Part shown: positions 4,676-54,072 of the stretch, piece by piece
How the letters are laid out: every line of letters begins with the position of its first letter
How positions within the stretch are numbered: position 1 is the stretch's first letter
Assembly (NCBI GenBank): GCA_015494465.1
Contig: WGBD01000002.1
Span: 197,267 to 261,266, forward strand
Direction of reading: 5' to 3'
DNA length: 64,000 nt
Source of the DNA: Candidatus Omnitrophota bacterium
Lineage (GTDB): Bacteria; Omnitrophota; Gorgyraeia; S143-82
Made by a program: the position numbers and the translations under genes
The notes under the pieces: model-generated
Told to the model about the DNA's origin: nothing
Seen by the model: the letters and a program-made list of their open reading frames with translations, nothing else
The model's database searches: none

Positions 4676-4676
4676 A

Positions 4677-5105: not shown

Positions 5106-5120
5106 AGCTAGGCACTTACC

Positions 5121-6875: not shown

Positions 6876-6885
6876 TGTCGTGTAA

Positions 6886-8577: not shown

Positions 8578-8589
8578 CTTGCATCCCGA

Positions 8590-32943: not shown

Positions 32944-32984
32944 GGAACCGTCCCCCTATAAATTAAAAACCCCACCATTGCCGT

Positions 32985-33099: not shown

Positions 33100-33168
33100 T
33101 CACGCGCATGGTAGGGACCGCTTCCAACACCAATTTAATGATAGCAGAAGGCAGGCAAAAAGGCAAGT

Positions 33169-34298: not shown

Positions 34299-34314
34299 TG
34301 CAAAATGCGTGCCA
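34299..34314 (-). promoter_or_regulatory. sigma-54 (RpoN) -24/-12 promoter for flgB-flgC-fliE
   Basis: The minus strand reads TGGCACGCATTTTGCA, a perfect match to TGGCAC-N5-TTGCA. It lies ~25 nt upstream of the flgB start. Confidence 0.6.
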
Positions 34315-35301: not shown

Positions 35302-35744
35302 TGAGGTTGCTTCCCATAGACACCATACGATTTGCCTCCCTCCACGCACCGTTCGCCATCCTCATCGCAATGGTACTCGTATCCAAGGTCCGCAACCGCC
35401 TGCTTCCCAACATACTGACGATACTCCTGTGCCTGTACTCTGCCTACTCTCTCATCGCATCCATCCTCATCTCCCAGATACTAGCCACTAAACAGAGACC
35501 CGGTTATCTCTTCGTCGAGAAGATACGCCCTTACCTCCGATCCCAAGAGGTCATTTGCAGCCAGGACATACAACTGCCCTGGTATCTGGTAGACAATCCC
35601 GTAGGAAAGGTCTCTCGGGATAGACAAGGAGAATACCTGCAGTGGAAAGGCTGTAAAGCCCTGGTCATAAGGAGGGAAAAGGGTCAGTGGGTCCTCTTGA
35701 AACCCAAGGAGTACGGGAAGGACACCAAATCATCCCCTAAGTAA
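35295..35744 (+). CDS. membrane protein (3 TM plus soluble C-terminal domain); may be a continuation of the preceding gene
   Basis: ATG at 35295 (MVVRLLPIDTIRF...). ATGGTAG overlap with the upstream gene. Different frame. Confidence 0.4.
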   Translation: MVVRLLPIDTIRFASLHAPFAILIAMVLVSKVRNRLLPNILTILLCLYSAYSLIASILISQILATKQRPGYLFVEKIRPYLRSQEVICSQDIQLPWYLVDNPVGKVSRDRQGEYLQWKGCKALVIRREKGQWVLLKPKEYGKDTKSSPK

Positions 35745-36874
35745 TCTCCCTCGCACAACACGACCGCCCGGTGGATGCAGTTCTCCAGTTCCCGCACATT
35801 GCCCGGCCAATCGTAGTCCAAAAGGACCCTCATAGCGGAGTCAGTGATGCCCTTTATCTCCTTGCCCACCTTCTTGCTATACCGACGGAGAAAGGCCTCT
35901 GCCAACAGGGGGATGTCTTCTTTCCTTTCCCGCAAGGGCGGGACATATATAGGCACCACATTCAACCTAAAGAACAGGTCTTCCCGGAACCTTCCTTCCT
36001 TCACCTCCTGGGCCAGATCCCGATTGGTGGTAGCCACCACCCTCACATCCACCTCGACAGGGGAACTTCCCCCTATCCTATCCACCTCTCCCTCCTGAAG
36101 GACCCGCAACAACTTCGCCTGCAGGTGGAGGGGCATCTCCCCTATCTCGTCCAAAAGTATCGTTCCCCCGTGGGCGAGTTCAAACTTTCCCTTGCGGGTG
36201 TAGACCGCTCCGGTAAAGGCCCCCTTCTCGTGGCCAAACAACTCCGCTTCCACGAGGGTATCGGGTATTGCCGCGCAGTTCACCCTCACATAGGGCCCAT
36301 CTGCCCGCTGGCTCAAGGCGTGGATCCTGCGGGCGATTAATTCCTTCCCCGTACCGGTCTCACCCATTATGAGGACCGTCGCATCACTGCAGGCAATCTT
36401 CTCCAACTCCCTTTTGAGGGCCCTTATAGGAGCGGACTCCCCTATGAACTCCTCCCCCACCTCCGACTGGCACCTAACCAGTTCCTTCAACCGGACATTT
36501 TCCTCTTTCAGCCTGTGGGCCTCCAGGGTCTTCTCCACCACCACCTCAAGTTCGTCGGCGGAGAAGGGCTTCATGATGTAATCGCTGGCGCCCTTCTTCA
36601 TGGCGGTCACCGCGGTGTCCACCGTTCCGTAGGCGGTAATCATTATCACCGGCAGGTTGGGGAATTTCTCCTTCACCTTCTCCAGGAACTCTATCCCCGA
36701 CATCTCGGGCATACGCATGTCGGTAATCACCAGATCGCAACCGCCCTTATCCAAAAGGGAAAGCCCCTTCTTCGGCGAATTCACCGCCCTAACCTTGTGG
36801 CCCGCCTCCTTAAGGACCATCCTCAAGGACTCCAAGACCAGATCGTCGTCGTCCACGACTAATATGGAAGCCAT
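35684..36874 (-). CDS. sigma-54-dependent response regulator lacking a C-terminal DNA-binding domain (FlgR-like)
   Basis: Start at ATG 36872-36874 ([11 protein letters not shown]), with SD GGAGGT. REC domain plus AAA+ sigma-54 activator domain ([21 protein letters not shown]). The protein ends ~25 aa after the AAA+ domain. No Fis-type HTH. Confidence 0.8.
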
Positions 36875-37686
36875 ATAACGACCTCCGCCCCTTTTTCCCA
36901 ATTCCCGAACTCCACCTCTCCCCCGTGGGCCTCCACTATCCGGCTGGTTATCGCCAGCCCCAACCCGGTCCCTTTGGTCTTAGTGGTGAAGAAGGGCTCG
37001 CACAACCTTCCCATCACCCCTTCGGGGAATCCCGGGCCGGTATCCCTTACGGATATCCCAACCCTGCCTCCCCTCACCTCGCAGGACAACCAGATCTGAC
37101 CTTTATCCCCAACCGCATCCACCGCGTTGTCCAATACATTCAACAGGGCCCTCTCCAGATAATCCGGATCCGCGGAGAACCTCACCTCCTCGTCGGAGAC
37201 GGAAAGGGTTATATCCTTGCCCTCCAAGGCAGGGACCAGAAACTTCTGCATCCTTCGGGAAAGGTTCCGCCAGGAGACCTGCACCTTGTTGAGGGATATG
37301 TCCTGGGCGAAGTTCAGGATGTCCCCTATTATCGACTCCATCCTATTAACGCCCGCCCGGATGTTCTCTATCAGCTCCCTCGCACCCGGATCTCGAACCT
37401 TCTTCTCCAACATAGATACCGACAAGGAGATCCCTGCCAGCGGATTCCTTATCTCGTGGGCAAGGGTGGCCGCCATCTCCCCGATGGCTGCAAGACGCCG
37501 GGAACGCTCCAACTGCTCGGTAAGCTCTGCGATCCTGCGCTCCAGGACCGCGTAGTACTCTATCAACTCCGCGCTGGTCTTGGAAAAGGCGTCAAAGGCC
37601 TTTATCAGCTCCTCAGGTGGGGTCTCTCTTGCCAGATCACCGCCGGCGATCGACGAATCTGGCCTCTTTACCGGTTCCCTTTCCAT
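36859..37686 (-). CDS. cytoplasmic sensor histidine kinase (FlgS/FleS-like)
   Basis: 275 aa, no TM segments. HisKA H-box LAHEIRNPLAGI. HATPase_c N/G boxes. It overlaps the regulator start by 16 nt. Confidence 0.75.
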   Translation of the reverse strand: MEREPVKRPDSSIAGGDLARETPPEELIKAFDAFSKTSAELIEYYAVLERRIAELTEQLERSRRLAAIGEMAATLAHEIRNPLAGISLSVSMLEKKVRDPGARELIENIRAGVNRMESIIGDILNFAQDISLNKVQVSWRNLSRRMQKFLVPALEGKDITLSVSDEEVRFSADPDYLERALLNVLDNAVDAVGDKGQIWLSCEVRGGRVGISVRDTGPGFPEGVMGRLCEPFFTTKTKGTGLGLAITSRIVEAHGGEVEFGNWEKGAEVVIWLPY

Positions 37687-38068
37687 AGTACGCCTTCACC
37701 GCCTTCTTGCCCGCGTTCACCTGGGAAAGGTCCGCCTCCAGACGATCCTTACTTTTCTGGACCTGTTCCACCAACACCCCTTCCAACTCCAACAGCCTCT
37801 TCACCACCGCCTCTATCTCCTCGAAAAGGGCCGCGATCCTCTCCTTTTCCTCTCTAGGGAGATCCCCCCGATTTTGCTTCCACCACATCTTCAGTTCGGC
37901 GAGCCTGTCGTCTATCGACTGTATCTTCAATACCAATTCTTGCTTTTTCTTCAGGGCAGAGAACAAAAAATCCACATCCCCGCCCCGTTCCACCTGCTGG
38001 TTGGAGATCTCCAGCATCTGCCTGTACAGGTCCAGTTCCTCCTCCAGCCCTGCTATCAGGGCCACCAC
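37637..38068 (-). CDS. small coiled-coil protein, FlgN-like/flagellar chaperone-like (tentative); start uncertain
   Basis: Candidate GTG starts at 38065/38068 or the ATG at 38017. Sequence ...LVLKIQSIDDRLAELKMWWKQ...EEKERIAALFEEIEAVVKRLLELE. It overlaps the kinase start by 50 nt. The longer track ORF overlaps the upstream TPR gene. Confidence 0.35.
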   Translation of the reverse strand: MVALIAGLEEELDLYRQMLEISNQQVERGGDVDFLFSALKKKQELVLKIQSIDDRLAELKMWWKQNRGDLPREEKERIAALFEEIEAVVKRLLELEGVLVEQVQKSKDRLEADLSQVNAGKKAVKAYYGKGTGKEARFVDRRR

Positions 38069-38076
38069 CTCTTTAT

Positions 38077-41217: not shown

Positions 41218-41546
41218 TGCCCATCGCTCGCTTCACCCTTTTTCCGCTCGCTGTCGAACTCCTGCTCCAAGATGTCCCGTATCTGCAACAGACTGTACCC
41301 TTGTGCCTTCAACTCCTTTATCCGCTTCAGGCGGGGGAAGACATCCTCCCCGTAAAGCCTGTGCCCCGAGGGGGTGCGAGAGTGCTCTTTTATCAACCCT
41401 AACTGAGTGTAGTTGTGGAGGATCTGACGAGAAAGCCCGGTGTAGTACATCACCTCGCCGATCTTGTAGAGCTTGGGAGGGATGAGCACATCGTCCGGAG
41501 ATCCCGGTGGTTGGTTTTGCAAGTTATCTTTTTCGTTATTCAACAT
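41214..41546 (-). CDS. MerR-family transcriptional regulator
   Basis: ATG at 41544-41546 (MLNNEKD...). The track start at 41564 is a TTG. HTH KLYKIGEVMYYTGLSRQILHNYTQLGLI. The stop overlaps the start of the next gene. Confidence 0.7.
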   Translation of the reverse strand: MLNNEKDNLQNQPPGSPDDVLIPPKLYKIGEVMYYTGLSRQILHNYTQLGLIKEHSRTPSGHRLYGEDVFPRLKRIKELKAQGYSLLQIRDILEQEFDSERKKGEASDGQ

Positions 41547-41581
41547 AAACTTTGCCTTTGGCAAATTGCTATGTGAATAAT

Positions 41582-41740: not shown

Positions 41741-42421
41741 CTACCTTCTCCTGCGCCGGAAAGAGAAGAGGACGGGAAGGGCGAGCCCCAACAGGGACAG
41801 CGAAGCGGGTTCGGGGACGATCCCTTGCAGGCCCCCTTCACCCTTTTTGGCGAGGATCCAGGCGGAGGTATAGGGGTCGCTCACCGCGTCGTCCGCAATA
41901 TAGCCCTTCTTTCCTCCGTAGGTATACACATTCCCCGACATGGTAGAATAAGAGGTGATCCTGTATATGTACCGCCTAGTACTCGGCCCAGTCCCTGAGG
42001 CCACATCAGCGATCCTGCCTATCCAGTACCTGTAATAGGTCATACCCGAGAGCTTGTCCCTAGTGTAGGGGAATACCGACCAATCCTCGTCTATCACTGG
42101 GACGAGGGTAGCGACCTCATCTTCCCTCGCTAGGCGCCACGATCCGTACCCTGAAAAGTCGTACCCGCTTACCGCCATCTCACTTGCAGGGACTATGGCA
42201 TCCAAGATAGACTGGATGTCAAACAGCGTCTTCTGGGTAAAGAGGCCCAGATTCCGCAACCACACCACCTCGTTGGTGTCGTCGTAGACCACGCTTAGCT
42301 GTCTTCCGTTATAGATAAGGTTGGAGGGCGTTAAGATGGCTATCGAGGCATAACCTGTTAGCACCACCCCACTGAGCAACCAGACTGCCACACCCACGGA
42401 GGAAAGCACCAACCTCTTCAT
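41741..42421 (-). CDS. PEP-CTERM sorting-domain protein (exosortase substrate)
   Basis: 226 aa with a signal peptide. C-terminus VPEPASLSLLGLALPVLFSFRRRRR, i.e. PEP motif, TM helix and Arg cluster. Confidence 0.65.
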   Translation of the reverse strand: MKRLVLSSVGVAVWLLSGVVLTGYASIAILTPSNLIYNGRQLSVVYDDTNEVVWLRNLGLFTQKTLFDIQSILDAIVPASEMAVSGYDFSGYGSWRLAREDEVATLVPVIDEDWSVFPYTRDKLSGMTYYRYWIGRIADVASGTGPSTRRYIYRITSYSTMSGNVYTYGGKKGYIADDAVSDPYTSAWILAKKGEGGLQGIVPEPASLSLLGLALPVLFSFRRRRR

Positions 42422-42449: not shown

Positions 42450-42660
42450 ATCACTTGTACCAAAGACCCTGATTCTCATGCGGTCTTTAAATGATTCTAA
42501 AGCAAAACCACTCCACTTTCAAGTGTTTTTACATGTTTAACATAACATTAACATAACCATGAGAGAAACAAGGGGTATCAATCCTGCCCGATGCGAATCC
42601 TTTCCGTTGCGTTCCCAGCGAATACCCGATATACTATCTTCAACGCGCGAGGAGGTCCCG

Positions 42661-43749: not shown

Positions 43750-44572
43750 CATCTCTTATTCCCTATTCTTCGGATTCCTTGCCTACTTCGCTATCCTCTT
43801 GTACCTCTACTTCAACCAAGATCGACTCATATTCCTCCCCACACCCGGTACCCCGATCATCACCCCCGCGAACTACGGTATAGATTACGAATCCCACATC
43901 CTACCCATCAACGACAAAGAAAGCGTCCACCTCTGGTTCATCCCCGGCAAGGAAGAACAGAGCCCCGTTCTCCTGTTCTGCCACGGGAATTCAGGCAACC
44001 TCGGTTCTCGGTTAGAGATACTAAGGGTCCTCTATCAACTTGGGATCCCTATAGCCATCTTTGACTACCGCGGATACGGGGAGAGTCGGGGGCGTCCTTC
44101 GGAAAAACACCTCTACGAAGACGGGGAACGGGTGCTAAGGTTCCTGAAGACCGAAAAGGGATACCCCCTCAAGGAGACCATCGTCATGGGAAGATCCTTG
44201 GGAGGGGCGGTGGCCTGTGAACTCGCCTACCGCCACCCCGATCTCTCAGGCCTTATACTGGACTCCGCCTTTACCTCTCTGGCAGAGATAGCCCAGATAC
44301 GCTATCCCTATGTCCCGGTATCGCTCTTATTAAAGTACCGCTTCGACAATCTATCCAAGGTCCAAGCAATCTCCATTCCAAAGCTGATAATCCACTCTCT
44401 TCAGGACGAGGTGATCCCCTTCTCCCTGGGACAGAGGCTATTCCAACGAGCCCGGCCTCCTAAGAGGTTCCTCTCCCTGCCCGCAGGTGGGCACAACGAT
44501 GCCTTCCTAGAATCCCAGGAAAGGTACCTTCAGGGGCTGAAAGAATTCCTGAGCGAAATAAGATCCCACTAA
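43724..44572 (+). CDS. alpha/beta-fold hydrolase
   Basis: 282 aa with an N-terminal TM segment, nucleophile elbow GRSLGG and a C-terminal His. Confidence 0.7.
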   Translation: MIWLILKNSISYSLFFGFLAYFAILLYLYFNQDRLIFLPTPGTPIITPANYGIDYESHILPINDKESVHLWFIPGKEEQSPVLLFCHGNSGNLGSRLEILRVLYQLGIPIAIFDYRGYGESRGRPSEKHLYEDGERVLRFLKTEKGYPLKETIVMGRSLGGAVACELAYRHPDLSGLILDSAFTSLAEIAQIRYPYVPVSLLLKYRFDNLSKVQAISIPKLIIHSLQDEVIPFSLGQRLFQRARPPKRFLSLPAGGHNDAFLESQERYLQGLKEFLSEIRSH

Positions 44573-45159
44573 TCCCGAAAGGGGCGGAAAAAGGGATGCG
44601 TAGCTAAGGCGAGCATCTCCCTGTCACCCCTGGAATCCCCGTAGGCGTAGATCTCGTCGTATTGGGATAGATCGAAGACCTCCCGAATCCTCCTCGTCTT
44701 CTCTGCCCCGTAACAATTCTTGCCCAAGATCTTCCCGGTAACTATCCCGTCCCTTTCCTCTAACTCCACCCCGATCACCCTTCGTATCCCTACCCCCTTG
44801 GCCCAGGGCCGGAGATAAACCTCCAAAGAGGCAGAAACGATCGCCACCTCGTCCCCTCTAGACTGATGCCAGGTTATTCTATCTAACGCCTTTGGTCTTA
44901 CCAAGGCAGGCAACCGCTCCTTCGCGAACCTCTGCCCCAAATCCGCCACCTCCTTTAGGGTCCTGCCAGAGAGGGTAGCGGTAAGTACCCTTTCCTTTAC
45001 GCTTTGATTATCAACCAACCCCAAGAAGTATCCGAGGAGATAAGGCCACTGACCCAATAAGCGAGGATAGAAATCCCACCCCAATGCATAGCGCAAGAAC
45101 TCAGAGATACTCTCTCGATAGGTAATAGTACCGTCGAAGTCAAAGAGGGCTAGATTCAT
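44569..45159 (-). CDS. HAD-superfamily hydrolase (subfamily IB-like)
   Basis: 196 aa. Motif I LFDFDGTIT. Distal Asp motif YGDSRGD. Confidence 0.65.
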   Translation of the reverse strand: MNLALFDFDGTITYRESISEFLRYALGWDFYPRLLGQWPYLLGYFLGLVDNQSVKERVLTATLSGRTLKEVADLGQRFAKERLPALVRPKALDRITWHQSRGDEVAIVSASLEVYLRPWAKGVGIRRVIGVELEERDGIVTGKILGKNCYGAEKTRRIREVFDLSQYDEIYAYGDSRGDREMLALATHPFFRPFRD

Positions 45160-45394
45160 CCGGTCCGGCTCTCTTGTTTAGGAGCTCACTGATCTCCTCT
45201 AAGGAGAGCTCGCTCTCTGCAGATACGAGGTTCTCGTTCCTTATCTGCTCGAATATCTCTTTTCTATAGACCGGGATCGAGGCGGGAGCCTTTATGCCCA
45301 ACTTCACCACCTCTCCCCTTACATCGAGAACGACGACCTCCACATCGCTCCCGATCATTAGGCTCTCCTGTTTCTTCCTGGTCAATACCAGCAT
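45140..45394 (-). CDS. csrA: carbon storage regulator CsrA
   Basis: 84 aa: MLVLTRKKQESLMIGSDVEVVVLDVRGEVVKLGIKAPASIPVYRKEI. Classic CsrA. Confidence 0.9.
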   Translation of the reverse strand: MLVLTRKKQESLMIGSDVEVVVLDVRGEVVKLGIKAPASIPVYRKEIFEQIRNENLVSAESELSLEEISELLNKRAGPDESSPL

Positions 45395-45847
45395 CTATCC
45401 TACAGCCTCTTCTTCCCGCTGGGTCTCTACTCTAAGGACCTCAAACTGGAGAGGATACTCTTCAGGATCGAGAACTACTTGCTTGGCCTTTTTGTTAATC
45501 CTATTCACCAGTATAGGGCCTTGCAGGTTAAGCGTCACCCGCAAGGGATTCTTCCTAATAGAGACCAACACCCATATCTCTCCGTTTGACAGCTCGGTAA
45601 GCCCGATGTCCTCCAGCTGACTCCTATGGAGTCGGATCTTGTAATCGGGAACGAACACCAAGGGATTCGTGATTACGAAGGCCAAGGCGGGATTCTCTAC
45701 CGACTGCATCCAATAAAAAGGGCCGTTGTCCTCTCGCAATATCACATACCTGCGCTCAGAGGGAAAACCCAGTATTCCCTGGGGGAAATCTATTATCTCA
45801 TCCTTGGATATCCTTATCTCCCCAAACCTCGTGGTGTGGATCTTCAT
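45395..45847 (-). CDS. fliW: flagellar assembly factor FliW
   Basis: 150 aa: MKIHTTRFGEIRISKDEIIDFPQGILGFP. FliW family, directly upstream of csrA. Confidence 0.9.
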   Translation of the reverse strand: MKIHTTRFGEIRISKDEIIDFPQGILGFPSERRYVILREDNGPFYWMQSVENPALAFVITNPLVFVPDYKIRLHRSQLEDIGLTELSNGEIWVLVSIRKNPLRVTLNLQGPILVNRINKKAKQVVLDPEEYPLQFEVLRVETQREEEAVG

Positions 45848-45877
45848 AGCCTAATCCTTTCCTCAAATATTCTACCC

Positions 45878-47104
45878 TTACTTCAGAAAATCTAAAAGGG
45901 ATGGTTGAATGACGGTAGTTAAGGACTTTAAGAGAGATTGGTATATGTTTTGCTCCTTCGTCAGCTTCACCGTCACATCTGCCATGTCCGCATCTTCCAC
46001 TTCGGAAAGGAGATTAGTTATGTTCACCAACTCACTGTCCAATTTGGATCGCGTCATCTCCAGTCTTTGGGCACGAGTCCCCACCTCAACCCAGGCCTGC
46101 AAGGCCTTGTCTATGACGGAGTCTATCTCTCCTGCCACCTGAAGGATCTTATTTGCGTCGTTTCCCTCCAACCCCTCTTTTAACCTCAACAACACCCCAA
46201 ATATGTCGTCGGATTCATCTAAGCCCACTATGCCCAGATCCTGGGCGGTCTGGGTACTCTCTACCGACAAGGTCGTTCCACTCACGGTGGAGCGAAGATT
46301 TATACCCGTACCCGCCTCGTTTATCTCCGCAACCACATTTATACCCGCAGAGTTTATTGCATTGAGGACATCGCCTACCGTGTCGGTAGGATTTACCGAT
46401 ATAGTAGCGGTTTGATTGCCATTGTGTATAATTACCGTCCCAGCGTGGACTCCGCTACCTGAATTGAAGGTAGACAACAGAGTAGTTTCGGTGATAGGGG
46501 TTACGGTTGCATTCACATTGGCTCCCCTTATCATCGTCTGGGGATCGGCAAAGATGTTCCTCCCAATCTGATTCAACTGCATCTGGATCCCCTTGCTGAT
46601 CTCCACATACATCGCACCTTCGTCGCCGTTGTACCTGACGACCTCCTTGCCCCCCACGATTTCCCGAGTAAAAGGCTGGGTCCGAGTACGATATCCGCCG
46701 AATATGTACCTATTGCCATGCTTGGTATTGGCCAACTGCACTATCTGGCCTATTATGCTGTCGACCTGCAGGGCTGCACTCCTGCGGGTCTGTTCGTCTG
46801 CGGAATCGCTCCCCTGCTCAAGGGCTATGGCCTTGGCGTTGTTCAACAACTGGGTAACATTAGAGAGGGCGGTATCCGCAACCGACATCCAGGACTGGGC
46901 GTATCCAATGTTGCTTTGATACTGGGCTATGTCGTCGAGCTCTTTTCGATATAAGAGATCCTGGGTCACATCTGCAGGGGCGTCTGAAGGACGATTGATC
47001 CGCTTACCCGTAGCGATCTGCTCCTGCAGGCGTATAAACCGATCAAAGGCCAAGGTGAGATTGCGGTAGGCCTTCTCGTATATCATGTTAGTGGATATCC
47101 TCAT
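45878..47104 (-). CDS. flgL: flagellar hook-associated protein 3 FlgL
   Basis: 408 aa with flagellin-like N- and C-terminal helical domains. N-terminus MRISTNMIYEKAYRNL. Confidence 0.8.
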   Translation of the reverse strand: MRISTNMIYEKAYRNLTLAFDRFIRLQEQIATGKRINRPSDAPADVTQDLLYRKELDDIAQYQSNIGYAQSWMSVADTALSNVTQLLNNAKAIALEQGSDSADEQTRRSAALQVDSIIGQIVQLANTKHGNRYIFGGYRTRTQPFTREIVGGKEVVRYNGDEGAMYVEISKGIQMQLNQIGRNIFADPQTMIRGANVNATVTPITETTLLSTFNSGSGVHAGTVIIHNGNQTATISVNPTDTVGDVLNAINSAGINVVAEINEAGTGINLRSTVSGTTLSVESTQTAQDLGIVGLDESDDIFGVLLRLKEGLEGNDANKILQVAGEIDSVIDKALQAWVEVGTRAQRLEMTRSKLDSELVNITNLLSEVEDADMADVTVKLTKEQNIYQSLLKSLTTVIQPSLLDFLK

Positions 47105-48807
47105 CCCGCCACCTCGTTTATCAGGATGTCCAAGAGCTCGTCAACCGCGTTGATGTACTTCGCCGCTGCCTCGTAGGCCCGCTGGAACCGCATGAGGTTC
47201 ATCGCCTCTTCGTCAAGTGAAACCCCGGAGATCTCTTCTATGCTGTTCTTGATGTGCGTAATAAGGGTCTCCTGGGCCTCCTTCATGTTGTCTGCCTCTC
47301 TCTTATCCACTCCCATCATGCCCAGGGTAGAGGCATAATAGTCGTATATCGTAGCAGATCCTCCCTCCATTAGATCTGCATCCTTAAGCCTTGCGATAGC
47401 TATGGCATTGTTGCCGTCACCGATTTCCCCAGAGGCCGAGGCGGAGATGTACTTCACATTGCTGGCGATCGGATCGCTAACCGCAATAGTACCTGCAGAG
47501 TTGCCTTTGAAGAAGACATTCAATCCTAAGGCAGTCAAGGCCCCACTGCCATCCTGATTGAGGAAGAACCTATATCCGTCTTCTGCCTCAACATGGAGGT
47601 GGCCATCGCTATCTAGGTAGGCCCTGAGATGGGATATACCACTGGAGAAATCCGAACCTATAGCAGTGATTATGTCGTTTGCACTGGTCCCACCCGCACC
47701 ACTGGTAATGCTAATGGTATTGGCGGAGAGGGTATTCCCCGCGGTGTCCTTGACCGTGATCACGAACGAGCCATCCGAGACCACATCGTAAAAGTCCAAC
47801 CCGCTATCGCTGCTGCTGATACTCGCGTCTGCATCCTGCAGGGCATAGCTAGATGTCAAGGAGCTGAAGCCCTCCAATCCCCATCCTTGGGTGTGCTGTC
47901 GGTTGACCTCCACTATGAGGGTCCTGGCTATCTGATTAACCCTATCTAGGTAGGCAGGTATTTTTACATCTCTGGCTATCATAGCGCCCTTTAACTTGCC
48001 AGCGCGGGCCTGGACCGGAGCATTGTTCATCTCCCATATGGGAACTACGTGTCCCTCTTCGTTATAACGGTAGGTAATCGTCGTCGCAGAGACCCTATCT
48101 ACCAGATTCACCCCACCAACGCTTACCAAGACCGTTCCGTCGGGCTGTTCCTCGGTGGTGAAGTCTATCAGTTCTGATAGCCGTCTCAACATCTCGTCCC
48201 TCTGATCGCGAAGATCGTTAGCGACGAAATCTCCTACCTCGTAGAACCTGATCCTGTCGTTAAGGGAGGCGATGTTGCTGGCTAGGCTGTTTATTTCCTG
48301 GATGTAGGCCTTTATGGCCTCGTCCGCGTCGTACCTGAGCCCTTGTATCTTTTCGTACAACATGTTTAGGTGTGCGGTTAACATCTCCGACTGGTGCAGC
48401 ACATTGCTCCGCGAGGTCTGTTCTTCGGGCGTAAGAGAGAGGTCTTCCCATCTACCCCAAAACTCTGACAACAACTTGTTCAGACCCTCGTCTGAAGGCT
48501 CGTTAAAGTAGAGTTCCAAGCGCGACAAAAACTTCTCTATCTCCTCCCACTGCCCCAATAGCTTGGTCTCGTTGCGCAATTGTATGTCCAAAAAACCCTC
48601 TCTTATCCTGGCTATACGGGCAATTTCTACGCCGGTCCCCTTGACTCCCCAGGGAGTCAGATCGGGCAATGCCTCTACTAACTCCACCCTCTGACGGGAA
48701 TAACCAGGGGTATTGGCATTGGCTATGTTATGGCCAGTGGTCTCAAGGGCCAGTTGGGCAGCCCGCAATGCCCTTATACCTGCGGTAAATCCGGAAAATC
48801 CTCCCAT
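47101..48807 (-). CDS. flgK: flagellar hook-associated protein 1 FlgK
   Basis: 568 aa. N-terminal rod/hook motif GIRALRAAQLALETTGHNIANANTPGYSRQ. Confidence 0.85.
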   Translation of the reverse strand: MGGFSGFTAGIRALRAAQLALETTGHNIANANTPGYSRQRVELVEALPDLTPWGVKGTGVEIARIARIREGFLDIQLRNETKLLGQWEEIEKFLSRLELYFNEPSDEGLNKLLSEFWGRWEDLSLTPEEQTSRSNVLHQSEMLTAHLNMLYEKIQGLRYDADEAIKAYIQEINSLASNIASLNDRIRFYEVGDFVANDLRDQRDEMLRRLSELIDFTTEEQPDGTVLVSVGGVNLVDRVSATTITYRYNEEGHVVPIWEMNNAPVQARAGKLKGAMIARDVKIPAYLDRVNQIARTLIVEVNRQHTQGWGLEGFSSLTSSYALQDADASISSSDSGLDFYDVVSDGSFVITVKDTAGNTLSANTISITSGAGGTSANDIITAIGSDFSSGISHLRAYLDSDGHLHVEAEDGYRFFLNQDGSGALTALGLNVFFKGNSAGTIAVSDPIASNVKYISASASGEIGDGNNAIAIARLKDADLMEGGSATIYDYYASTLGMMGVDKREADNMKEAQETLITHIKNSIEEISGVSLDEEAMNLMRFQRAYEAAAKYINAVDELLDILINEVAG

Positions 48808-48808
48808 A

Positions 48809-49285
48809 TCACGCCCTCAGGTTATACACCCTCCCAAAGGTCCTCTCCTTCTTCCCCGTACAGCTGTAGCCTACGAAATCGAGCGAGGCAAACATCCCTA
48901 TCAGCTCTTCAACATAACACAACACGGTCCTCACGGTGTAACGCATCAGCCTGCTTTGGAGACGGATGTCTTCCAATACCTCCTTTAAGCGATCCTGCAG
49001 GTGTCTAAGGCCATTCCTTTCCTCGGGAGGGGCCATCCGTATCAGGTCTGACAACCTATCCGATCCTGCCAGACCAACACCTTTTCCCAATCGCCTACAG
49101 ATCTGCACTCTCTCTGCCTCCAGTTCCCGCAACCTCTCCTGTATCTTGGCCTGCATGCCGACAGTTTTCTCCAAACTATCCACATCCCTCTTAACCAAGG
49201 CCTCTTTGACCTTGCCGAGGGTCTCCCCAAACTCCTTGTATAGGCTCAATTGCTGGGTCAGTATTCGCTTTAGTTCCTTCCACAT
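48809..49285 (-). CDS. flgN: FlgN-like flagellar export chaperone
   Basis: 158 aa, helical. Immediately upstream of flgK, the classic position. Confidence 0.5.
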   Translation of the reverse strand: MWKELKRILTQQLSLYKEFGETLGKVKEALVKRDVDSLEKTVGMQAKIQERLRELEAERVQICRRLGKGVGLAGSDRLSDLIRMAPPEERNGLRHLQDRLKEVLEDIRLQSRLMRYTVRTVLCYVEELIGMFASLDFVGYSCTGKKERTFGRVYNLRA

Positions 49286-49323
49286 CCCGCTCTCGACCTC
49301 CTAACCACCTTATCGTCTCTCTT

Positions 49324-49620
49324 CTACCGCTCCTTTACCAAAAACTTCTCCATAGACCTGTAAACCAGATCCCCCAACCCCAAGACCGAGCGTTGAGACA
49401 AATAGCGTGACAACTCCAAGTTTTTTATGTCGCGGTAGATCTCTTCCCCCTCCCCACCAAACAAGATGTCAGCGGGTCCTAATCCCTTTTCCATCTCCTT
49501 CAATAACATATACACAAACATCGATTCTACCTCCTTAGAGGCAGCCCTCAAGCGTTGAGACTCACTCCCCCGCACCTCTAAAGTAGATAGATTTAAACCC
49601 AGGCCTAATACGCTATTCAC
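49324..49620 (-). CDS. rod-binding protein (FlgJ N-terminal domain homolog, no glucosaminidase domain)
   Basis: 98 aa. Rod_binding motif EVESMFVYMLLKEMEK. Confidence 0.6.
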   Translation of the reverse strand: MNSVLGLGLNLSTLEVRGSESQRLRAASKEVESMFVYMLLKEMEKGLGPADILFGGEGEEIYRDIKNLELSRYLSQRSVLGLGDLVYRSMEKFLVKER

Positions 49621-49629: not shown

Positions 49630-50727
49630 TCAAATAATCACCAACTCTGCAGAAAGCGCCCCTGCGGACTTTATCGCCTGGAAGATGGATATGATGTCTC
49701 TGGGGCTTACCCCCAAGGCATTCAAGGCAGAGGCAAGGGTCCCGACCGTCGGCGTAGAGTTCACCACGACCATCTTCCCCTCTTGCTCCACCACCTTTAC
49801 CCCGTTCTGGGGCATCACCTCGGTAGACCCCGCGGACAAGGGCATCGGCTGGGATACCAACCACTGGGACTTCACCTCTATAGAGAGGCTTCCGTGGGAT
49901 ATCGCAACCGTATCTATCTTCACATCCTTGCCCGCAACGACCGTACCGGTGCGCTCGTTTATCACCACCCGGGCATTCACATCCGGCTCTACCTTCACCT
50001 GCTCCAGCAGGGAGATGAAGTCCACTGCGGAATCCCTAAACTCCTTCGGCATCTGCACCATAACCCTCGAGGCAGAGATGGGATGGGCTATCTTCCCCCA
50101 CTGCTCGTTTATCGCCTCTGCAAGTCTGGAGGCAGTAGTAAAGTCGGGCTGATTCAGTGAGATTATCACCCTATCCGTATGCACGAACTCCACTGGTATC
50201 TCCCTTTCCACGATCGCGCCGTTTGGGATGCGACCTACCGTGGGATGGTTCTTCTGGGTCTTGCTCCTGCCCTGTCCGGCGCTGTAGCCACCCAGAGAAA
50301 GGGGGCCCTGGGCCACCGCGTATACCTTCCCATCCGGTCCCATCAACGGGGTCATCAACAGGACCCCGTTGGAGAGATCCGTCGCATCCCCGATAGAGGA
50401 TACCAGACAGTCTATTTTCGTGCCCGGGGTAACGAAGGCAGGGATCCTTGCAGTAACGACCACCGCTGCGACATTCTTCATCTTGATGTCCTTGGGGGAT
50501 AGGTTTATCCCCATCTCCTTCATCATGTTAGCAATGGCTCGGGAGGAAAATATTGCAGAGGACTTATCCCCGGTCCCGTTGAGGCCTACCACCACACCGT
50601 AGCCTATCAGCTGGTTCTCCCTTACCCCTTCTACGCGGGCTATGTCCTTCAAGCGCACGGAGTAGACACCTGCTTGGGACAGGGAAGTCCCGAGCAACAC
50701 CAACGAGAGTACCAACCACCTCTTCAT
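49630..50727 (-). CDS. flgI: flagellar P-ring protein FlgI
   Basis: 365 aa with signal peptide. Motif GYGVVVGLNGTGDK. Confidence 0.9.
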   Translation of the reverse strand: MKRWLVLSLVLLGTSLSQAGVYSVRLKDIARVEGVRENQLIGYGVVVGLNGTGDKSSAIFSSRAIANMMKEMGINLSPKDIKMKNVAAVVVTARIPAFVTPGTKIDCLVSSIGDATDLSNGVLLMTPLMGPDGKVYAVAQGPLSLGGYSAGQGRSKTQKNHPTVGRIPNGAIVEREIPVEFVHTDRVIISLNQPDFTTASRLAEAINEQWGKIAHPISASRVMVQMPKEFRDSAVDFISLLEQVKVEPDVNARVVINERTGTVVAGKDVKIDTVAISHGSLSIEVKSQWLVSQPMPLSAGSTEVMPQNGVKVVEQEGKMVVVNSTPTVGTLASALNALGVSPRDIISIFQAIKSAGALSAELVII

Positions 50728-50742: not shown

Positions 50743-51399
50743 TTAGAACAACCACGCCAGATCGAAGAACCACTCCAGCAACCCCTTGTTATTCTGCTTA
50801 TCACCGAGCGTGCCAAGGCCCTTACAACTGATCTTGGCATTGGCAATGCGGGAGGATTCCACCGTGTTGTCCGAAGTAATGTCTTCGGGTCTAACCTCTC
50901 CGGTCAGGGTTACATACTGCCTCTCCCCGTTTATCTCTATCTCCTTCTGCCCTTCGATAACGAAGACCCCATTCGGCAGGATGTCTATTATCTTTGCGGA
51001 CATCTTGGCCACGAACTTCTGGGAACGGGTGGTCTTGCCCTTGGACTTGTACTCGTGAGAGGCGCTCGTGTCTATCTTGGGCAGATTCGCGTTGGGAAGG
51101 GAATAGGCCTTTACATCCGGGAGGATCCCCAAGCTATTCAATATTACTTTAATCCAACTCTTCACCTCGTCCTTTATGGTGGTCTCCCGCTTGGTCTTGG
51201 TGTCCGCGTCCGTCTCTGCGGTTGAGGTCTCGGTTATAACGATAGTGAGGATGTCCCCTATCTGCCTTGCCCTCCTGTCCATAAACATGGAGCCCTTGCC
51301 CATACGCTCTCTCTCCATCCACAAGGACCCTGCAATCCCTTCTCCTGCGAAAATCAAGGTAAAGACCAAGAAGACCATAGACAACCCTATCCTCTTCAT
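50743..51399 (-). CDS. flgH: flagellar L-ring protein FlgH
   Basis: 218 aa with signal peptide. Motif GDILTIVITE. Confidence 0.85.
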   Translation of the reverse strand: MKRIGLSMVFLVFTLIFAGEGIAGSLWMERERMGKGSMFMDRRARQIGDILTIVITETSTAETDADTKTKRETTIKDEVKSWIKVILNSLGILPDVKAYSLPNANLPKIDTSASHEYKSKGKTTRSQKFVAKMSAKIIDILPNGVFVIEGQKEIEINGERQYVTLTGEVRPEDITSDNTVESSRIANAKISCKGLGTLGDKQNNKGLLEWFFDLAWLF

Positions 51400-52331
51400 C
51401 TCCTCACCACCACCTCTCCCGGACCGACGACTTCTGCCAGAAATCGCTTACCGGTGGAAACATTTGCCACCACTATATCCTCCGCAGGCAGACCGTTTTC
51501 CTGCGCAATGCCAACTGTGGATACGACCACGCCACCCGAGCGATAACAGACCTTCACCTCCTGGCCCTTCTTTATCACATACCTTCTGGTTACATCCCTG
51601 CGCATCAGTATGTGGCCCCTCTTCAGCGGATACCTCACCGTCCAGCCGACCGGTGATTCCCGTCCCGGAAAGGCTCCTGCATGTCCACCATCACCATCTT
51701 CCGCCGGCTCAAGATCTTCCCTCTTCAACACCTCACCTGCCGGCACATCTCTGGTGAGTCTCCACAATTTCCCCCTCACGATAGGCACCACCTTTACCGG
51801 TATCACCCTGCCCCTGCACATCAACCGGACATAACAATGGCCAGCGCAATCTTCGGGCAAGGATACTTCGATCTGCGAAAGGTCCTCACAGCCTATGTTG
51901 GGCAATGTCTGCTGTTCCAAACGATAGCCCATAGACGAAAGGCGTCCCTTCAACCAAGTCAGGACCTCACCTCCTGACAAGACCGCCTCTCTCCGATAGA
52001 TCTCGACCTTACCCTCCACCTTTACCCCTACTCCTCTCAAGGCGAGCATCCGGGAGACATCCTCTCCAGTCCAGCGGAACACATCTCCCTCCTCCGGTGC
52101 GGGCGAAAGTATCACATCATCTATCCCTGAAAGATCCTCCACCACATCCGAGAGTCTGACGAATCGAGAATTCAACACGACCTTATCCTTCAACCGAAGC
52201 GATTGCCTCTCTTCCGCCCATCCAGGCAGGATGAACAAGAGGACCAGCCAGAAGACCGCCATCGCAAGGAGCGAGATGGCTATGGACCTTATTACCTCTA
52301 CCCAGTACAGCCCTACATTCTTATTACTCAT
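51396..52331 (-). CDS. flgA: flagellar basal-body P-ring formation protein FlgA (SAF domain)
   Basis: 311 aa with an N-terminal TM/signal and a C-terminal SAF-like domain. Position between flgG and flgH. Confidence 0.6.
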   Translation of the reverse strand: MSNKNVGLYWVEVIRSIAISLLAMAVFWLVLLFILPGWAEERQSLRLKDKVVLNSRFVRLSDVVEDLSGIDDVILSPAPEEGDVFRWTGEDVSRMLALRGVGVKVEGKVEIYRREAVLSGGEVLTWLKGRLSSMGYRLEQQTLPNIGCEDLSQIEVSLPEDCAGHCYVRLMCRGRVIPVKVVPIVRGKLWRLTRDVPAGEVLKREDLEPAEDGDGGHAGAFPGRESPVGWTVRYPLKRGHILMRRDVTRRYVIKKGQEVKVCYRSGGVVVSTVGIAQENGLPAEDIVVANVSTGKRFLAEVVGPGEVVVRR

Positions 52332-52334: not shown

Positions 52335-53132
52335 TCACCTCTTGAGGGTATTGGCGATCTGGAGCATCTCGTCCGCAGTCTGCACTGCCTTGGAGTTCAT
52401 CTCGTAGGCCCTTTGGGCCACGATCATATTCACCATCTCGTCCACCACCTTCACATTGGACATCTCCAGGAACCCCTGCCTTATCATACCGAAGTCGTCC
52501 TGACCCGGGGTCCCGGTTATCGGATCACCCGAAGCCTCGGTGGGGAGAAACAGGTTCATACCAATCGCCTTAAGGCCTGCAGGATTGACGAATTTCACCA
52601 GCTCTATGTTCCCAACCACCTGCGGGGTGGTCTCCCCCGGGACGACCACCGAGACCGTTCCGTCAATACCTATGGTAATCTCGGTCGCGTCCTCAGGGAT
52701 GGTAATCTCCGGCTCCAGATACATCCCTTCAGAGTTGACTATCTTTCCATCCTGATCTATCTTGAAGGACCCGTCCCGGGTGTAGGCTATCGTCCCGTCG
52801 GGCATAACTACCTGGAAAAAACCCTTGCCTTCGATGAGCATATCCAAGGGATTGCCCGTCTCCACGAAGTCCCCTTGAGAGAACTGTTTGGCTATCGCCA
52901 CCACCCGCACGCCGTGTCCCAACTGTATCCCGGTAGGCACCACCTGAGAACCTGCCACCGGCGTACCGGGGGACTTCATCACCGTATATAGTAGGTCCTC
53001 GAAGTCCGCCCGACTCTTCTTAAAGCCGGTGGTATTCACATTAGACAGGTTGTTGGCAATCACATCTACATTCGTCTGCTGAGCAGCCATCCCGCTGGCA
53101 GCGGTCCATAAGGCACTGATCATCTCCTGCAC
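52335..53132 (-). CDS. flgG: flagellar basal-body rod protein FlgG
   Basis: 265 aa. Motifs [13 protein letters not shown] at the N-terminus and [18 protein letters not shown] at the C-terminus. Confidence 0.9.
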
Positions 53133-53142: not shown

Positions 53143-53877
53143 TTACAGCCTCGGCACCTCCGCCAAGACCCTGCCCAACAACTCGTCGATCAGGCGTATC
53201 CCGTTGGCAGAGGCCTCGTAGGCCCTGTGGGCCACTATCATGTTGACCATCTCCTGGACGGGATTTACCGAACTGTCCTCCAAGTAGCCCTGATATATCC
53301 TGTAATTCTTGGGCTCAAATCCCGACTCCTCGGATACGAACAGATTCGCACCCTCTTTGCGGAGTCTGTACGGCTTGGGGAAGTCCACTATACGCAATCT
53401 ATCCACCATCTCCCCGTCCACCAAGACCTCGCCGAGGTAATTAATCACCACGCTACTCCCCTTTATCTGTATCGGACCGTTCAGTCCCAAGACCCTATTC
53501 CCCTCCGGGGTCGTTAGATAACCCTCCCTATCCAGCACGAAGTTCCCCGCACGGGTATACTTCTCTCCGGAAGGCGTCTGCACCACGAAAAAACCCTTCC
53601 CTGATATGGCCAGATCCAAGGGGTTGTCGGTGCGCCGCAGTTCCGCTTGCTTGATTATGGTATGATTGCCGTCAATGCGGACCCCGTAAGGGATGTTCTT
53701 CACGAATACTTCGCCCCCGGACACTGCTTGGGCCAACACCGAACCGAAACTGGAGAACACGGTCTCATCTCGTTTATAGCCAACGGTATTGGCGTTGGCC
53801 AGATTGTTGGATATGTCGTCAAGCCTCAGCATCTGAGAGACCGCGGACTGGGCCAACAGACCTGCGATCTTAAGCAT
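53143..53877 (-). CDS. flgF: flagellar basal-body rod protein FlgF
   Basis: 244 aa. Motifs SNNLANANTVGYK and [27 protein letters not shown] upstream. Confidence 0.8.
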   Translation of the reverse strand: MLKIAGLLAQSAVSQMLRLDDISNNLANANTVGYKRDETVFSSFGSVLAQAVSGGEVFVKNIPYGVRIDGNHTIIKQAELRRTDNPLDLAISGKGFFVVQTPSGEKYTRAGNFVLDREGYLTTPEGNRVLGLNGPIQIKGSSVVINYLGEVLVDGEMVDRLRIVDFPKPYRLRKEGANLFVSEESGFEPKNYRIYQGYLEDSSVNPVQEMVNMIVAHRAYEASANGIRLIDELLGRVLAEVPRL

Positions 53878-53900
53878 ACGCCACCTCCACCCCGGAAAGA

Positions 53901-53916
53901 TGCAAATACCGTGCCA
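53901..53916 (-). promoter_or_regulatory. sigma-54 (RpoN) -24/-12 promoter for the flgF-G-A-H-I...csrA operon
   Basis: The minus strand reads TGGCACGGTATTTGCA, a match to TGGCAC-N5-TTGCA. It lies ~25 nt upstream of the flgF ATG. Confidence 0.6.
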
Positions 53917-53988
53917 AAGAAATGAGAGGATACCAATTTAAGGTCAATTTAAGGTAAGGTAAAGGCGAGGAAGTAAGAAATCAAAAAC

Positions 53989-54061
53989 TGGACCGGAGGG
54001 GAGTCGAACCCCCGACCCCCACGTTGCGAACGTGGTGCTCTCCCAACTGAGCTACCGGCCC
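53989..54061 (-). tRNA. tRNA-Ala (anticodon CGC)
   Basis: Reverse complement GGGCCGGTAGCTCAGTTGGGAGAGCACCACGTTCGCAACGTGGGGGTCGGGGGTTCGACTCCCCTCCGGTCCA. G3:U70 pair. Anticodon arm CCACG-TTCGCAA-CGTGG. The backbone is identical to the tRNA-Ala at 18753-18825 outside the anticodon arm. Confidence 0.85.
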
Positions 54062-54072
54062 ATGTCTAAGGA

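What the first reader, a model, noticed from the sequence alone, without database searches (positions are those of the whole stretch)
53901..53916. Second sigma-54 promoter (TGGCACGgtatTTGCA) upstream of the 10 kb flgF...flgL-fliW-csrA operon
Same consensus match and same geometry as the flgB promoter, ~25 nt upstream of flgF. The two promoters share the core TGGCACG-N4-TTTGCA. This supports a single RpoN/FlgR-like regulon that includes the post-transcriptional FliW-CsrA module at the operon end. No further sigma-54 -24/-12 promoters are evident in this window.
Basis: seen in the sequence. Interest (0 to 1): 0.5.

Follow-up and report, generated by a model that had tools for sequence, protein, structure and literature searches.

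The report
Sigma-54 promoter before flagellar rod operon
The motif is a real, evolutionarily conserved sigma-54 promoter in front of a flagellar rod and ring gene cluster of an uncultured bacterium, an ordinary kind of control, but the far end of the cluster (including fliW-csrA) also has its own conserved sigma-28-type promoter, so it is not purely sigma-54 controlled.

Summary
Observation confirmed. TGGCACGGTATTTGCA lies on the minus strand at 53916->53901, 23 nt before the flgF ATG. The only other exact match in the window sits 23 nt before flgB (2 found, 0.01 expected). Seven related loci (FlgF 63-91% identical; the only named one is a Candidatus Omnitrophota MAG) keep TGGCAC-N5-TTGCA 36-64 nt before flgF. 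Their upstream neighbours and flanking sequence differ.

The likely activator is encoded beside flgB: a REC-AAA+ protein with GAFTGA but no DNA-binding domain, plus a small kinase. This resembles Helicobacter FlgR/FlgS.

The 12 genes flgF-G-A-H-I-J'-N-K-L-fliW-csrA-HAD are tightly packed and conserved. However, the largest gap (flgJ'-flgN) holds TAAA-N16-GACGATAA at 49337->49310, a sigma-28 consensus present in every relative. A weaker -10-like TAGAAT follows the flgL stop.

So fliW-csrA probably gets sigma-54 read-through plus late sigma-28 input, as in Salmonella and Bacillus. No other sigma-54 promoter was found in the window.

This is a new member of a known kind, of low to moderate interest. 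Whether the genome encodes rpoN and fliA could not be checked.

The parts
53901..53916 (-). Sigma-54 (RpoN) -24/-12 promoter of flgF: TGGCACGgtatTTGCA. Predicted start of transcription is near 53890 (inference from the usual -12 spacing).
   Evidence: 2 exact matches against 0.01 expected; conserved in 7 relatives; 1.90 bits per specified position against 0.37 and 0.59 in the flanks.
53878..53890 (-). Predicted very short leader (about 13 nt) containing the Shine-Dalgarno GGAGGTGG.
   Evidence: Sequence. The position of the transcription start is inferred, not measured.
53988..54062 (-). tRNA-Ala(CGC), followed by a T-run. This is the upstream boundary of the promoter region.
53143..53877 (-). 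flgF (proximal rod).
   Evidence: TIGR02490 182.6 bits, above the cutoff of 178.5.
52335..53132 (-). flgG (distal rod).
   Evidence: TIGR02488 397 bits, above the cutoff of 252.75.
51396..52331 (-). flgA (P-ring chaperone).
50743..51399 (-). flgH (L-ring).
49630..50727 (-). flgI (P-ring).
49324..49620 (-). Short rod-binding FlgJ-like protein (N-terminal domain only, 98 aa).
49310..49337 (-). Sigma-28 (FliA)-type promoter TAAA-N16-GACGATAA. It spans the flgJ' stop codon and the 38-nt flgJ'-flgN spacer and ends 24 nt before the flgN ATG.
   Evidence: the only 11/12 match in the window; 1 found against 0.09 expected; present at the same site in L162, L164, L166, L167, L081 and L082.
48809..49285 (-). 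flgN (chaperone of FlgK/FlgL).
47101..48807 (-). flgK (hook-associated protein 1).
45878..47104 (-). flgL (hook-associated protein 3).
45869..45896 (-). Candidate sigma-70-like promoter TTTAGA-16-TAGAAT. The -10 lies 3 nt after the flgL stop and 21 nt before the fliW ATG. Weak evidence.
   Evidence: 9/12 match, with the overall count at chance level. TATAAT, TAAAAT or TAGAAT at the same offset in 5 of 6 loci. The -35 half lies in conserved flgL codons.
45395..45847 (-). fliW.
45140..45394 (-). csrA (FliW-type: C-terminal extension, Asn55 conserved).
   Evidence: NF002469 85.4 bits, above the cutoff of 73. Sequence read.
44569..45159 (-). HAD-IB hydrolase gene. It overlaps csrA by 20 nt and is the last gene of the block. 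It converges on a plus-strand hydrolase gene.
   Evidence: TIGR01490 158.5 bits, above the cutoff of 98.3; conserved after csrA in all relatives.
34299..34314 (-). Sister sigma-54 promoter TGGCACGcattTTGCA, 23 nt before the flgB ATG (34275). It heads flgB-flgC-fliE.
   Evidence: TGGCAT/TGGTAT-N5-TTGCA before flgB in L170 and L171.
35684..36874 (-). Sigma-54 activator with REC + AAA+ (GAFTGA) + lid domains and no C-terminal HTH. It is the presumed activator of both promoters.
36859..37686 (-). Small histidine kinase (HisKA + HATPase_c; no hydrophobic segment seen by eye). It overlaps the activator gene and is the presumed cognate kinase.

Best explanation
The 16-mer is a genuine sigma-54 (RpoN) -24/-12 promoter on the minus strand. 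It starts transcription about 13 nt before the flgF start codon and drives the rod and ring genes flgF-flgG-flgA-flgH-flgI-flgJ'.

Its activator is most likely the response regulator encoded next to flgB. This protein has a receiver domain and a sigma-54 AAA+ domain with GAFTGA but no DNA-binding domain. It would therefore contact the closed sigma-54 holoenzyme complex from solution, without an enhancer, after phosphorylation by the adjacent small kinase. This works like FlgS/FlgR of Helicobacter and Campylobacter. The same pair would serve the twin promoter before flgB.

Transcription probably reads on into flgN-flgK-flgL-fliW-csrA-HAD, because the gaps are at most 38 nt and no terminator is evident. 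That distal half also has its own conserved sigma-28-type promoter in front of flgN, and possibly a weak sigma-70-type -10 in front of fliW.

FliW-CsrA therefore sits in a 'middle plus late' dual-input unit, like flgMN/flgKL in Salmonella and the sigD-dependent flgM-N-K-L unit of Bacillus. It is not an exclusively RpoN-dependent operon.

Shown: the motifs, their statistics, their conservation, the gene content and the domain architecture. Inferred: the transcription starts, the pairing of activator with promoter, the read-through, and the presence of rpoN and fliA in the genome.
For: Motif and statistics:
- There are two exact TGGCAC-N5-TTGCA sites against 0.01 expected. Both are intergenic, correctly oriented and 23 nt before flgF and flgB.

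Conservation of the sigma-54 promoter:
- All 7 relatives with FlgF 63-91% identical carry TGGCAC-N5-TTGCA 36-64 nt before flgF.
- Their upstream gene differs: tRNA-Ala/VIT1, divergent fur, or fliM.
- Information content is 1.90 bits in the motif against 0.37 and 0.59 in the flanks.
- flgB in L170 and L171 also has the motif.
- No sigma-70-like site was reported on the minus strand between the tRNA and flgF.

Activator:
- It contains GAFTGA and ends about 16 aa after the lid domain.
- All 14 orthologs (62-100% identical, 394-397 aa) lack PF02954. Homologs at 57% identity or less, of about 450 aa, have it.
- The alignment to P0135 stops before its Fis-type HTH.
- H. pylori FlgR lacks a DNA-binding domain and acts without binding DNA (PMC3930126).

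Sigma-28 site:
- It is the only 11/12 match in the window and occurs once against 0.09 expected.
- It is present at the same junction in every relative.
- In B. subtilis sigD activates flgM, flgK and flgL, and flgM-N-K-L are cotranscribed (PMC4054197).

Operon structure:
- The 12-gene order is conserved.
- Gaps range from -20 to +38 nt.
- Terminator-like hits are at chance level.
- Geobacter flgJMNKL-csrA-fliW is cotranscribed (PMC11934962).
Against: - No rpoN or fliA gene is in the window, and their presence in this genome could not be checked.
- There are no transcript data.
- The activator fails the curated Campylobacter FlgR and FlgS model cutoffs (349 against 750 bits; 88 against 600 bits). 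'FlgR-like' rests on architecture and context.
- The predicted leader is very short (about 13 nt; 10 nt in L001).
- In the window and L162 the sigma-28 spacer is 16 rather than the canonical 15, and the -10 reads GACGATAA.
- The sigma-70-like site before fliW has a poor -35, which lies in constrained coding sequence, and such sites occur at chance frequency overall.
Confidence: 0.75

Rival explanations
1. One reading: one sigma-54-driven transcript of about 9-10 kb is the only source of flgN-K-L, fliW and csrA mRNA. FliW-CsrA is then strictly RpoN/FlgR dependent.
For: - Genes are tightly packed and co-directional, with gaps of at most 38 nt.
- Terminator-like hits are at chance level.
- The 12-gene order is conserved in relatives.
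Against: - A canonical sigma-28 motif sits in the largest gap. It is unique in the window and conserved in all relatives, while the surrounding spacer diverges.
- A positionally conserved -10-like hexamer lies before fliW.
Confidence: 0.13
2. The two units are separate. The sigma-54 transcript ends or is processed after flgJ', and flgN...csrA-HAD is expressed only from the sigma-28 promoter, perhaps with the sigma-70-like one, as a pure late operon.
For: - The sigma-28 motif is conserved.
- In B. subtilis the sigD-dependent flgM-N-K-L unit stands apart from the hook-basal-body operon (PMC4054197).
Against: - No hairpin plus T-run lies in the 38-nt spacer, and no minus-strand terminator-like hit lies near it.
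- In several relatives the TAAA of the sigma-28 motif overlaps the flgJ' stop codon, which leaves no room for a terminator.
Confidence: 0.1
3. The motif is a chance or non-functional match, and flgF is transcribed from a sigma-70 promoter or by read-through from tRNA-Ala.
For: The tRNA-Ala lies 72 nt upstream on the same strand.
Against: - The exact motif is expected 0.01 times and found twice, both times before rod genes.
- It is kept in relatives whose upstream gene is not a tRNA.
- No sigma-70-like site was found in the spacer.
- A T-run follows the tRNA.
Confidence: 0.02

Closest known systems
FlgS/FlgR-RpoN control of rod and hook genes in Helicobacter pylori and Campylobacter jejuni
   Same: - Sigma-54 promoters stand directly before rod genes (flgB, flgF/G).
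- The system is a two-component kinase plus a REC-AAA+ activator.
- The activator lacks a DNA-binding domain, as H. pylori FlgR does, which implies enhancer-independent activation (PMC3930126).
- No conserved sequence lies upstream of -24.
   Different: - The lineage is different; the closest named relative is a Candidatus Omnitrophota MAG.
- The proteins do not reach the curated FlgR and FlgS cutoffs.
- The kinase and activator genes belong to a conserved merR-TPR-FlgN-like-kinase-activator module.
- fliW and csrA are adjacent and lie inside the flagellar block, unlike in Epsilonproteobacteria (PMC4894983).
Salmonella/E. coli flgMN and flgKL (class 2 read-through plus class 3 sigma-28 promoter) and the B. 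subtilis sigD-dependent flgM-flgN-flgK-flgL(-fliW-csrA) unit
   Same: - A sigma-28 consensus promoter stands before the flgN-flgK-flgL junction-protein genes, downstream of basal-body genes.
- fliW-csrA follows flgL, as in Bacillus (PMC4054197).
   Different: - The upstream tier is sigma-54, not FlhDC/sigma-70 or sigA.
- No flgM lies in the block.
- A HAD hydrolase is appended.
- The Salmonella dual-class arrangement, and the extension of the Bacillus unit into fliW-csrA, are cited from my own knowledge and were not retrieved here.
Geobacter flgJMNKL-csrA-fliW operon
   Same: csrA and fliW are cotranscribed with flgJ, flgN, flgK and flgL in one flagellar operon (PMC11934962).
   Different: - The gene order is csrA-fliW there and fliW-csrA here.
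- flgM is present there and absent here.
- No promoter class is stated in the passages I read.
Sigma-54 promoters before flgF homologs in other phyla
   Same: TGGCA-N6-TTGC lies 42-135 nt before the FlgF homolog in loci labelled Nitrospirae (L066), Thermodesulfovibrionales (L070), Deferribacteres (L043) and two unnamed bacteria (L040, L055).
   Different: These FlgF homologs are only 37-39% identical. Their operon content was not examined.

Membership tests
Sigma-54 (RpoN)-dependent -24/-12 promoter | GG and GC dinucleotides exactly one helical turn apart within TGGCAC-N5-TTGC(A/T). | tested here: met
   Perfect match to TGGCACG-N4-TTGCA.
Sigma-54 (RpoN)-dependent -24/-12 promoter | Intergenic, oriented toward a gene and close to it, and occurring above chance. 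| tested here: met
   It lies 23 nt before the flgF ATG. Two sites were found against 0.01 expected.
Sigma-54 (RpoN)-dependent -24/-12 promoter | Conserved as a footprint in orthologous promoters. | tested here: met
   7 of 7 relatives keep it, with unconserved flanks.
Sigma-54 (RpoN)-dependent -24/-12 promoter | A bacterial enhancer-binding-type AAA+ activator with GAFTGA is available. | tested here: met
   The gene at 35684-36874 matches PF00158 at 4e-72 and contains GAFTGA.
Sigma-54 (RpoN)-dependent -24/-12 promoter | rpoN is present in the genome, and transcription depends on RpoN. | not testable with these tools
   No rpoN is in the window. The rest of the genome could not be reached, and there are no transcript data.
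FlgS/FlgR-type enhancer-independent activation | [quoted passage not shown] | tested here: met
   - It has no HTH_8 hit and ends after the lid domain.
- Its orthologs all lack PF02954.
- The alignment with the HTH-bearing P0135 stops at residue 387 of 451.
FlgS/FlgR-type enhancer-independent activation | Orthology to Campylobacter FlgR and FlgS by the curated NCBIfam models. | tested here: not met
   NF049963 scores 349 bits against a cutoff of 750. NF049962 scores 88 bits against a cutoff of 600. It works like FlgSR but is not filed as an ortholog.
FlgS/FlgR-type enhancer-independent activation | No conserved upstream activator site. | tested here: met
   The mean information content is 0.37 bits in the 30 nt upstream of the motif, and the upstream genes differ. 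Only 30 nt were scored.
Sigma-28 (FliA) class-3 promoter | TAAA-N15-GCCGATAA consensus before a late flagellar gene. | tested here: met
   TAAA-N16-GACGATAA (11/12) lies 24 nt before flgN. Relatives have N15 or N16 with TCCGATAA, ACCGATAA or GGCGATAT.
Sigma-28 (FliA) class-3 promoter | fliA (and flgM) are present in the genome, and transcription depends on FliA. | not testable with these tools
   Neither gene is in the window or in the fetched loci of relatives.
FliW-CsrA partner-switch module | Adjacent fliW and csrA; CsrA has the C-terminal extension and the Asn55 needed for FliW antagonism. | tested here: met
   - FliW matches PF02623 at 2e-36, and CsrA scores 85.4 bits on NF002469 (cutoff 73).
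- Residues 52-56 read RNENL, with N55 (translated by eye from the DNA).
- The role of N55 is taken from PMC11934962.
FliW-CsrA partner-switch module | A flagellin mRNA leader with CsrA sites; FliW binds flagellin. | not tested
   No flagellin (fliC/flaA) gene is in the window.

The most novel reading that the evidence does not exclude
This uncultured lineage (closest named relative a Candidatus Omnitrophota MAG) may run a three-tier flagellar cascade. It would be headed by a DNA-binding-domain-less FlgR-type activator embedded in a conserved merR-TPR(about 1050 aa)-FlgN-like-kinase-activator module. That would be an enhancer-independent sigma-54 checkpoint outside the Campylobacterota, either ancient or independently evolved. 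In addition, the HAD-IB hydrolase that always follows and overlaps csrA may be a so far unrecognised third component of the FliW-CsrA module.
Probability: 0.25. Interest if true: 0.5.

Novelty: new member of a known kind. Interest (0 to 1): 0.28.

Why it matters
The finding gives a sequence-level model of flagellar gene control for a candidate phylum with no cultured, genetically tractable members. In that model sigma-54 with a DNA-binding-less activator serves the rod and ring genes, and sigma-28 serves the junction proteins and the FliW-CsrA checkpoint.

It also corrects an easy over-reading: a compact co-directional block is not necessarily one regulon. For specialists the logic is familiar from Helicobacter/Campylobacter, Salmonella and Bacillus. 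The value is comparative rather than conceptual.

Tried and rejected
- **More sigma-54 promoters in the window.** I scanned for GG-N10-GC with up to 3 mismatches. Apart from the two perfect sites, every hit has at least 2 mismatches, and all but one lie in an ORF. The best, 42390->42375, encodes the signal peptide VAVWLL of a PEP-CTERM protein with a good SD and ATG upstream. Rejected. The one intergenic hit, 57747->57732 (TGGGAAGAAGATAGCA), has 3 mismatches and was not pursued.
- **Sigma-54 match inside flgI of L167** (TGGCACAGTTGTTGCA). A 3-mismatch site (49948->49933) lies in the window's flgI; equivalence of the two positions was not checked by alignment. Judged a coding coincidence.
- **Tandem 11-mer** CCAATTTAAGG/TCAATTTAAGG (plus strand, 53933-53954) upstream of -24, considered as an activator or IHF site. 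It is absent from the 91% relative L162. Rejected.
- **First sigma-28 pattern search**. I mis-set the spacer and it found nothing. Corrected.
- **Source and naming of the organism.** The exact look-up of the activator found no gene on record. The FlgF look-up returned only a 2.4-kb Logan contig. The Omnitrophota assignment therefore rests on one named MAG at 67% FlgF identity.
- **B. subtilis csrA promoters.** I could not retrieve Mukherjee 2011 or a text stating the promoters, so no claim about them is made from the literature.
- **Rfam** found no known RNA in the promoter or operon region.

Full report
**Observation**

The 16-mer TGGCACGGTATTTGCA is in the window at 53901-53916, read on the minus strand. 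It lies between tRNA-Ala(CGC) (54062-53988, minus) and an ORF starting with ATG at 53877. Twenty-three nucleotides, including the SD GGAGGTGG, separate the motif from that ATG.

The exact pattern TGGCAC-N5-TTGCA occurs twice in the 64 kb on both strands. Shuffles expect 0.01, and none of 100 reached 2. With 1-2 mismatches allowed the counts fall to chance, so only the two perfect sites stand out. The second site (34314->34299, TGGCACGCATTTTGCA) is also intergenic, on the minus strand, and ends exactly 23 nt before the ATG of flgB at 34275.

A scan with obligatory GG/GC and up to 3 mismatches gave nothing else credible. The 1-mismatch site at 42390->42375 encodes part of the signal peptide of a PEP-CTERM protein that has its own SD and ATG upstream.

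**Gene content**

Pfam and NCBIfam identify twelve minus-strand genes downstream of the motif:

| Gene | Coordinates |
|---|---|
| flgF | 53877-53143 |
| flgG | 53132-52335 |
| flgA | 52331-51396 |
| flgH | 51399-50743 |
| flgI | 50727-49630 |
| rod-binding FlgJ-like (98 aa) | 49620-49324 |
| flgN | 49285-48809 |
| flgK | 48807-47101 |
| flgL | 47104-45878 |
| fliW | 45847-45395 |
| csrA | 45394-45140 |
| HAD-IB hydrolase | 45159-44569 |

Gaps range from -20 to +38 nt. The block is 9.3 kb long and ends head-on against a plus-strand hydrolase gene. Sigma-70-like and terminator-like consensus hits across it are at chance level.

**Relatives**

The FlgF protein has a small clade of close relatives (63-91% identity), then a drop to 46% or less. 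The only named one is a Candidatus Omnitrophota MAG (L001, 67%). I fetched seven related loci: L162, L164, L166, L167, L081, L082 and L001.

The five loci long enough to cover the whole block (L162, L164, L166, L167, L081) keep the same twelve genes in order, including the HAD gene after csrA. All seven carry TGGCAC-N5-TTGCA 36-64 nt before the flgF start. This holds although the upstream neighbour is tRNA-Ala/VIT1 in some, a divergent fur gene in L166, and fliM in L167 and L001.

I anchored 8 flgF and 3 flgB promoters on the motif. The specified positions carry 1.90 bits on average. The 30 nt upstream carry 0.37 bits and the 30 nt downstream 0.59 bits. This is a clean phylogenetic footprint of a -24/-12 element with nothing conserved upstream of it.

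**The activator**

A module lies upstream of flgB on the same strand: MerR-family gene, 1046-aa TPR protein, FlgN/FliT-like protein, 275-aa HisKA/HATPase kinase, and a REC + sigma-54 AAA+ + lid protein.

- The last protein contains GAFTGA and stops about 16 residues after the lid domain, with no HTH_8 hit.
- Its 14 closest relatives (62-100% identity, 394-397 aa) all lack PF02954. Homologs at 57% identity or less are about 450 aa and have it.
- An alignment with one of those (P0135) ends just before its Fis-type helix-turn-helix.

The merR-TPR-FlgN-like-kinase-activator module is conserved in L169, L170 and L171. In L170 and L171 it is followed directly by flgB-flgC-fliE-fliF-fliG-fliH-fliI-fliJ, with TGGCATaatatTTGCA or TGGTATgatttTTGCA before flgB.

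A review of RpoN-dependent flagellar regulation states that H. pylori FlgR lacks the DNA-binding domain and activates from solution, and that the C-terminal domain of C. jejuni FlgR is dispensable (PMC3930126). The architecture here, and the absence of conserved upstream sequence, fit that mechanism. The proteins do not reach NCBI's curated FlgR and FlgS cutoffs. I therefore say they work like FlgSR, not that they are orthologs.

**Where the interpretation needs correcting**

The largest gap in the block (38 nt, flgJ'-flgN) contains TAAA-N16-GACGATAA at 49337->49310, ending 24 nt before the flgN ATG.

- It is the only 11/12 match to the sigma-28 consensus TAAA-N15-GCCGATAA in the window.
- The core pattern occurs once against 0.09 expected.
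- Every relative has the same element at the same junction (TAAA-N15/16-TCCGATAA, ACCGATAA or GGCGATAT). The rest of the spacer varies in sequence and length.
- It is the only match, or one of two, to the TAAA-N15/16-NNCGATA(A/T) pattern in each 11-21 kb locus that covers the junction.

This is the arrangement known from B. subtilis, where sigD drives flgM, flgK and flgL and flgM-N-K-L are cotranscribed (PMC4054197). From my own knowledge it also matches Salmonella, where flgMN and flgKL are both class 2 and class 3.

A second, weaker candidate lies three nucleotides after the flgL stop codon: a -10-like hexamer (TAGAAT at 45874->45869). TATAAT occurs at the same offset in L164, L166 and L081, TAAAAT one nucleotide further on in L162, and a shifted TATAAG in L167. 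Its -35 half lies in conserved flgL codons and the spacing is not ideal, so I treat it only as a candidate.

**Mechanism proposed**

- Sigma-54 holoenzyme binds at 53916-53901.
- The phosphorylated activator, which has no DNA-binding domain, remodels the closed complex without an enhancer.
- Transcription starts near 53890 (inferred) and yields the rod and ring genes.
- With no terminator evident it probably continues into flgN...HAD.
- When sigma-28 becomes active, the flgN promoter adds late expression of the junction proteins, FliW, CsrA and the HAD protein.

CsrA here is of the FliW-regulated type, with a C-terminal extension and Asn55 (translated by eye from the DNA; role of N55 from PMC11934962). 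FliW-CsrA is thus probably influenced by, but not confined to, the sigma-54 tier.

**Limits**

- rpoN and fliA are not in the window.
- The taxonomic label rests on one named MAG.
- No transcript data exist.

**Comparison and novelty**

Sigma-54 promoters before rod genes, FlgSR-like two-component control, sigma-28 promoters before flgN/K/L and flagellar-linked fliW-csrA are all established. Sigma-54 motifs also precede FlgF homologs in loci labelled Nitrospirae, Thermodesulfovibrionales and Deferribacteres.

This is a new member of a known kind in an unstudied lineage. Its mildly interesting features are a conserved DNA-binding-less activator outside the Campylobacterota, the merR-TPR-FlgN-like module attached to it, and the HAD gene fused to the csrA end of the block.

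Noticed in passing
window 32965-33120 (-): Rfam finds a 6S/SsrS RNA (55.3 bits, gathering score 46.4). It lies immediately downstream of flgB-flgC-fliE on the same strand, before a znuA-ABC transporter operon.
   Followed up: no
window 34360-35744 (+): Two overlapping plus-strand ORFs in different frames (313 and 323 aa) have no Pfam hit for the first. They are membrane-protein-like by eye and may be one frameshifted gene. They sit between the activator gene and flgB. In relatives L170 and L171 flgB follows the activator directly and the operon continues to fliF-fliJ, whereas here it stops at fliE. This looks like a local rearrangement.
   Followed up: partly
window 35684-41564 (-); L169, L170, L171: A five-gene module is conserved in four genomes: MerR-family regulator, TPR protein of about 1050 aa, FlgN/FliT-like protein, small kinase, and sigma-54 activator without a DNA-binding domain. 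The roles of the MerR and TPR proteins are unknown.
   Followed up: partly
window 44569-45159 (-): A HAD-IB family hydrolase gene overlaps the csrA stop by 20 nt. It follows csrA in the five relatives that reach that far. Its link to FliW-CsrA or the flagellum is unknown.
   Followed up: partly
L016:12125, L020:12204, L025:12159, L031:12167, L032:12154, L036:12239, L039:12439, L012:14315, L026:14104: In many spirochaete loci fetched with FlgF, a perfect TGGCAC-N5-TTGC(A/T) lies in an intergenic stretch about 22-31 nt before a gene encoding a sigma-70-family protein (...LKAYFNQIR..PLLTFEEE.ELS...). This looks like the Borrelia RpoN->RpoS arrangement, conserved next to flagellar rod genes in free-living spirochaetes.
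   Followed up: partly
window 53933-53954 (+ coordinates): A tandem 11-nt direct repeat (CCAATTTAAGG TCAATTTAAGG) lies between the tRNA-Ala and the -24 element. It is not conserved in the 91% relative L162.
   Followed up: yes
window 42465-42493 (-), upstream of 41741-42421: The PEP-CTERM protein gene has a good sigma-70-like TTGAAA-17-TAGAAT upstream (read by eye). The sigma-54-like 1-mismatch match lies inside its signal-peptide codons.
   Followed up: partly
window 3750-12492 (-): A type II secretion / type IV pilus-like cluster: secretin, T2SSE ATPase with an MshEN domain, T2SSF, a pilin-like protein, and several ORFs without Pfam hits. No sigma-54 motif was found before the pilin-like gene.
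   Followed up: no
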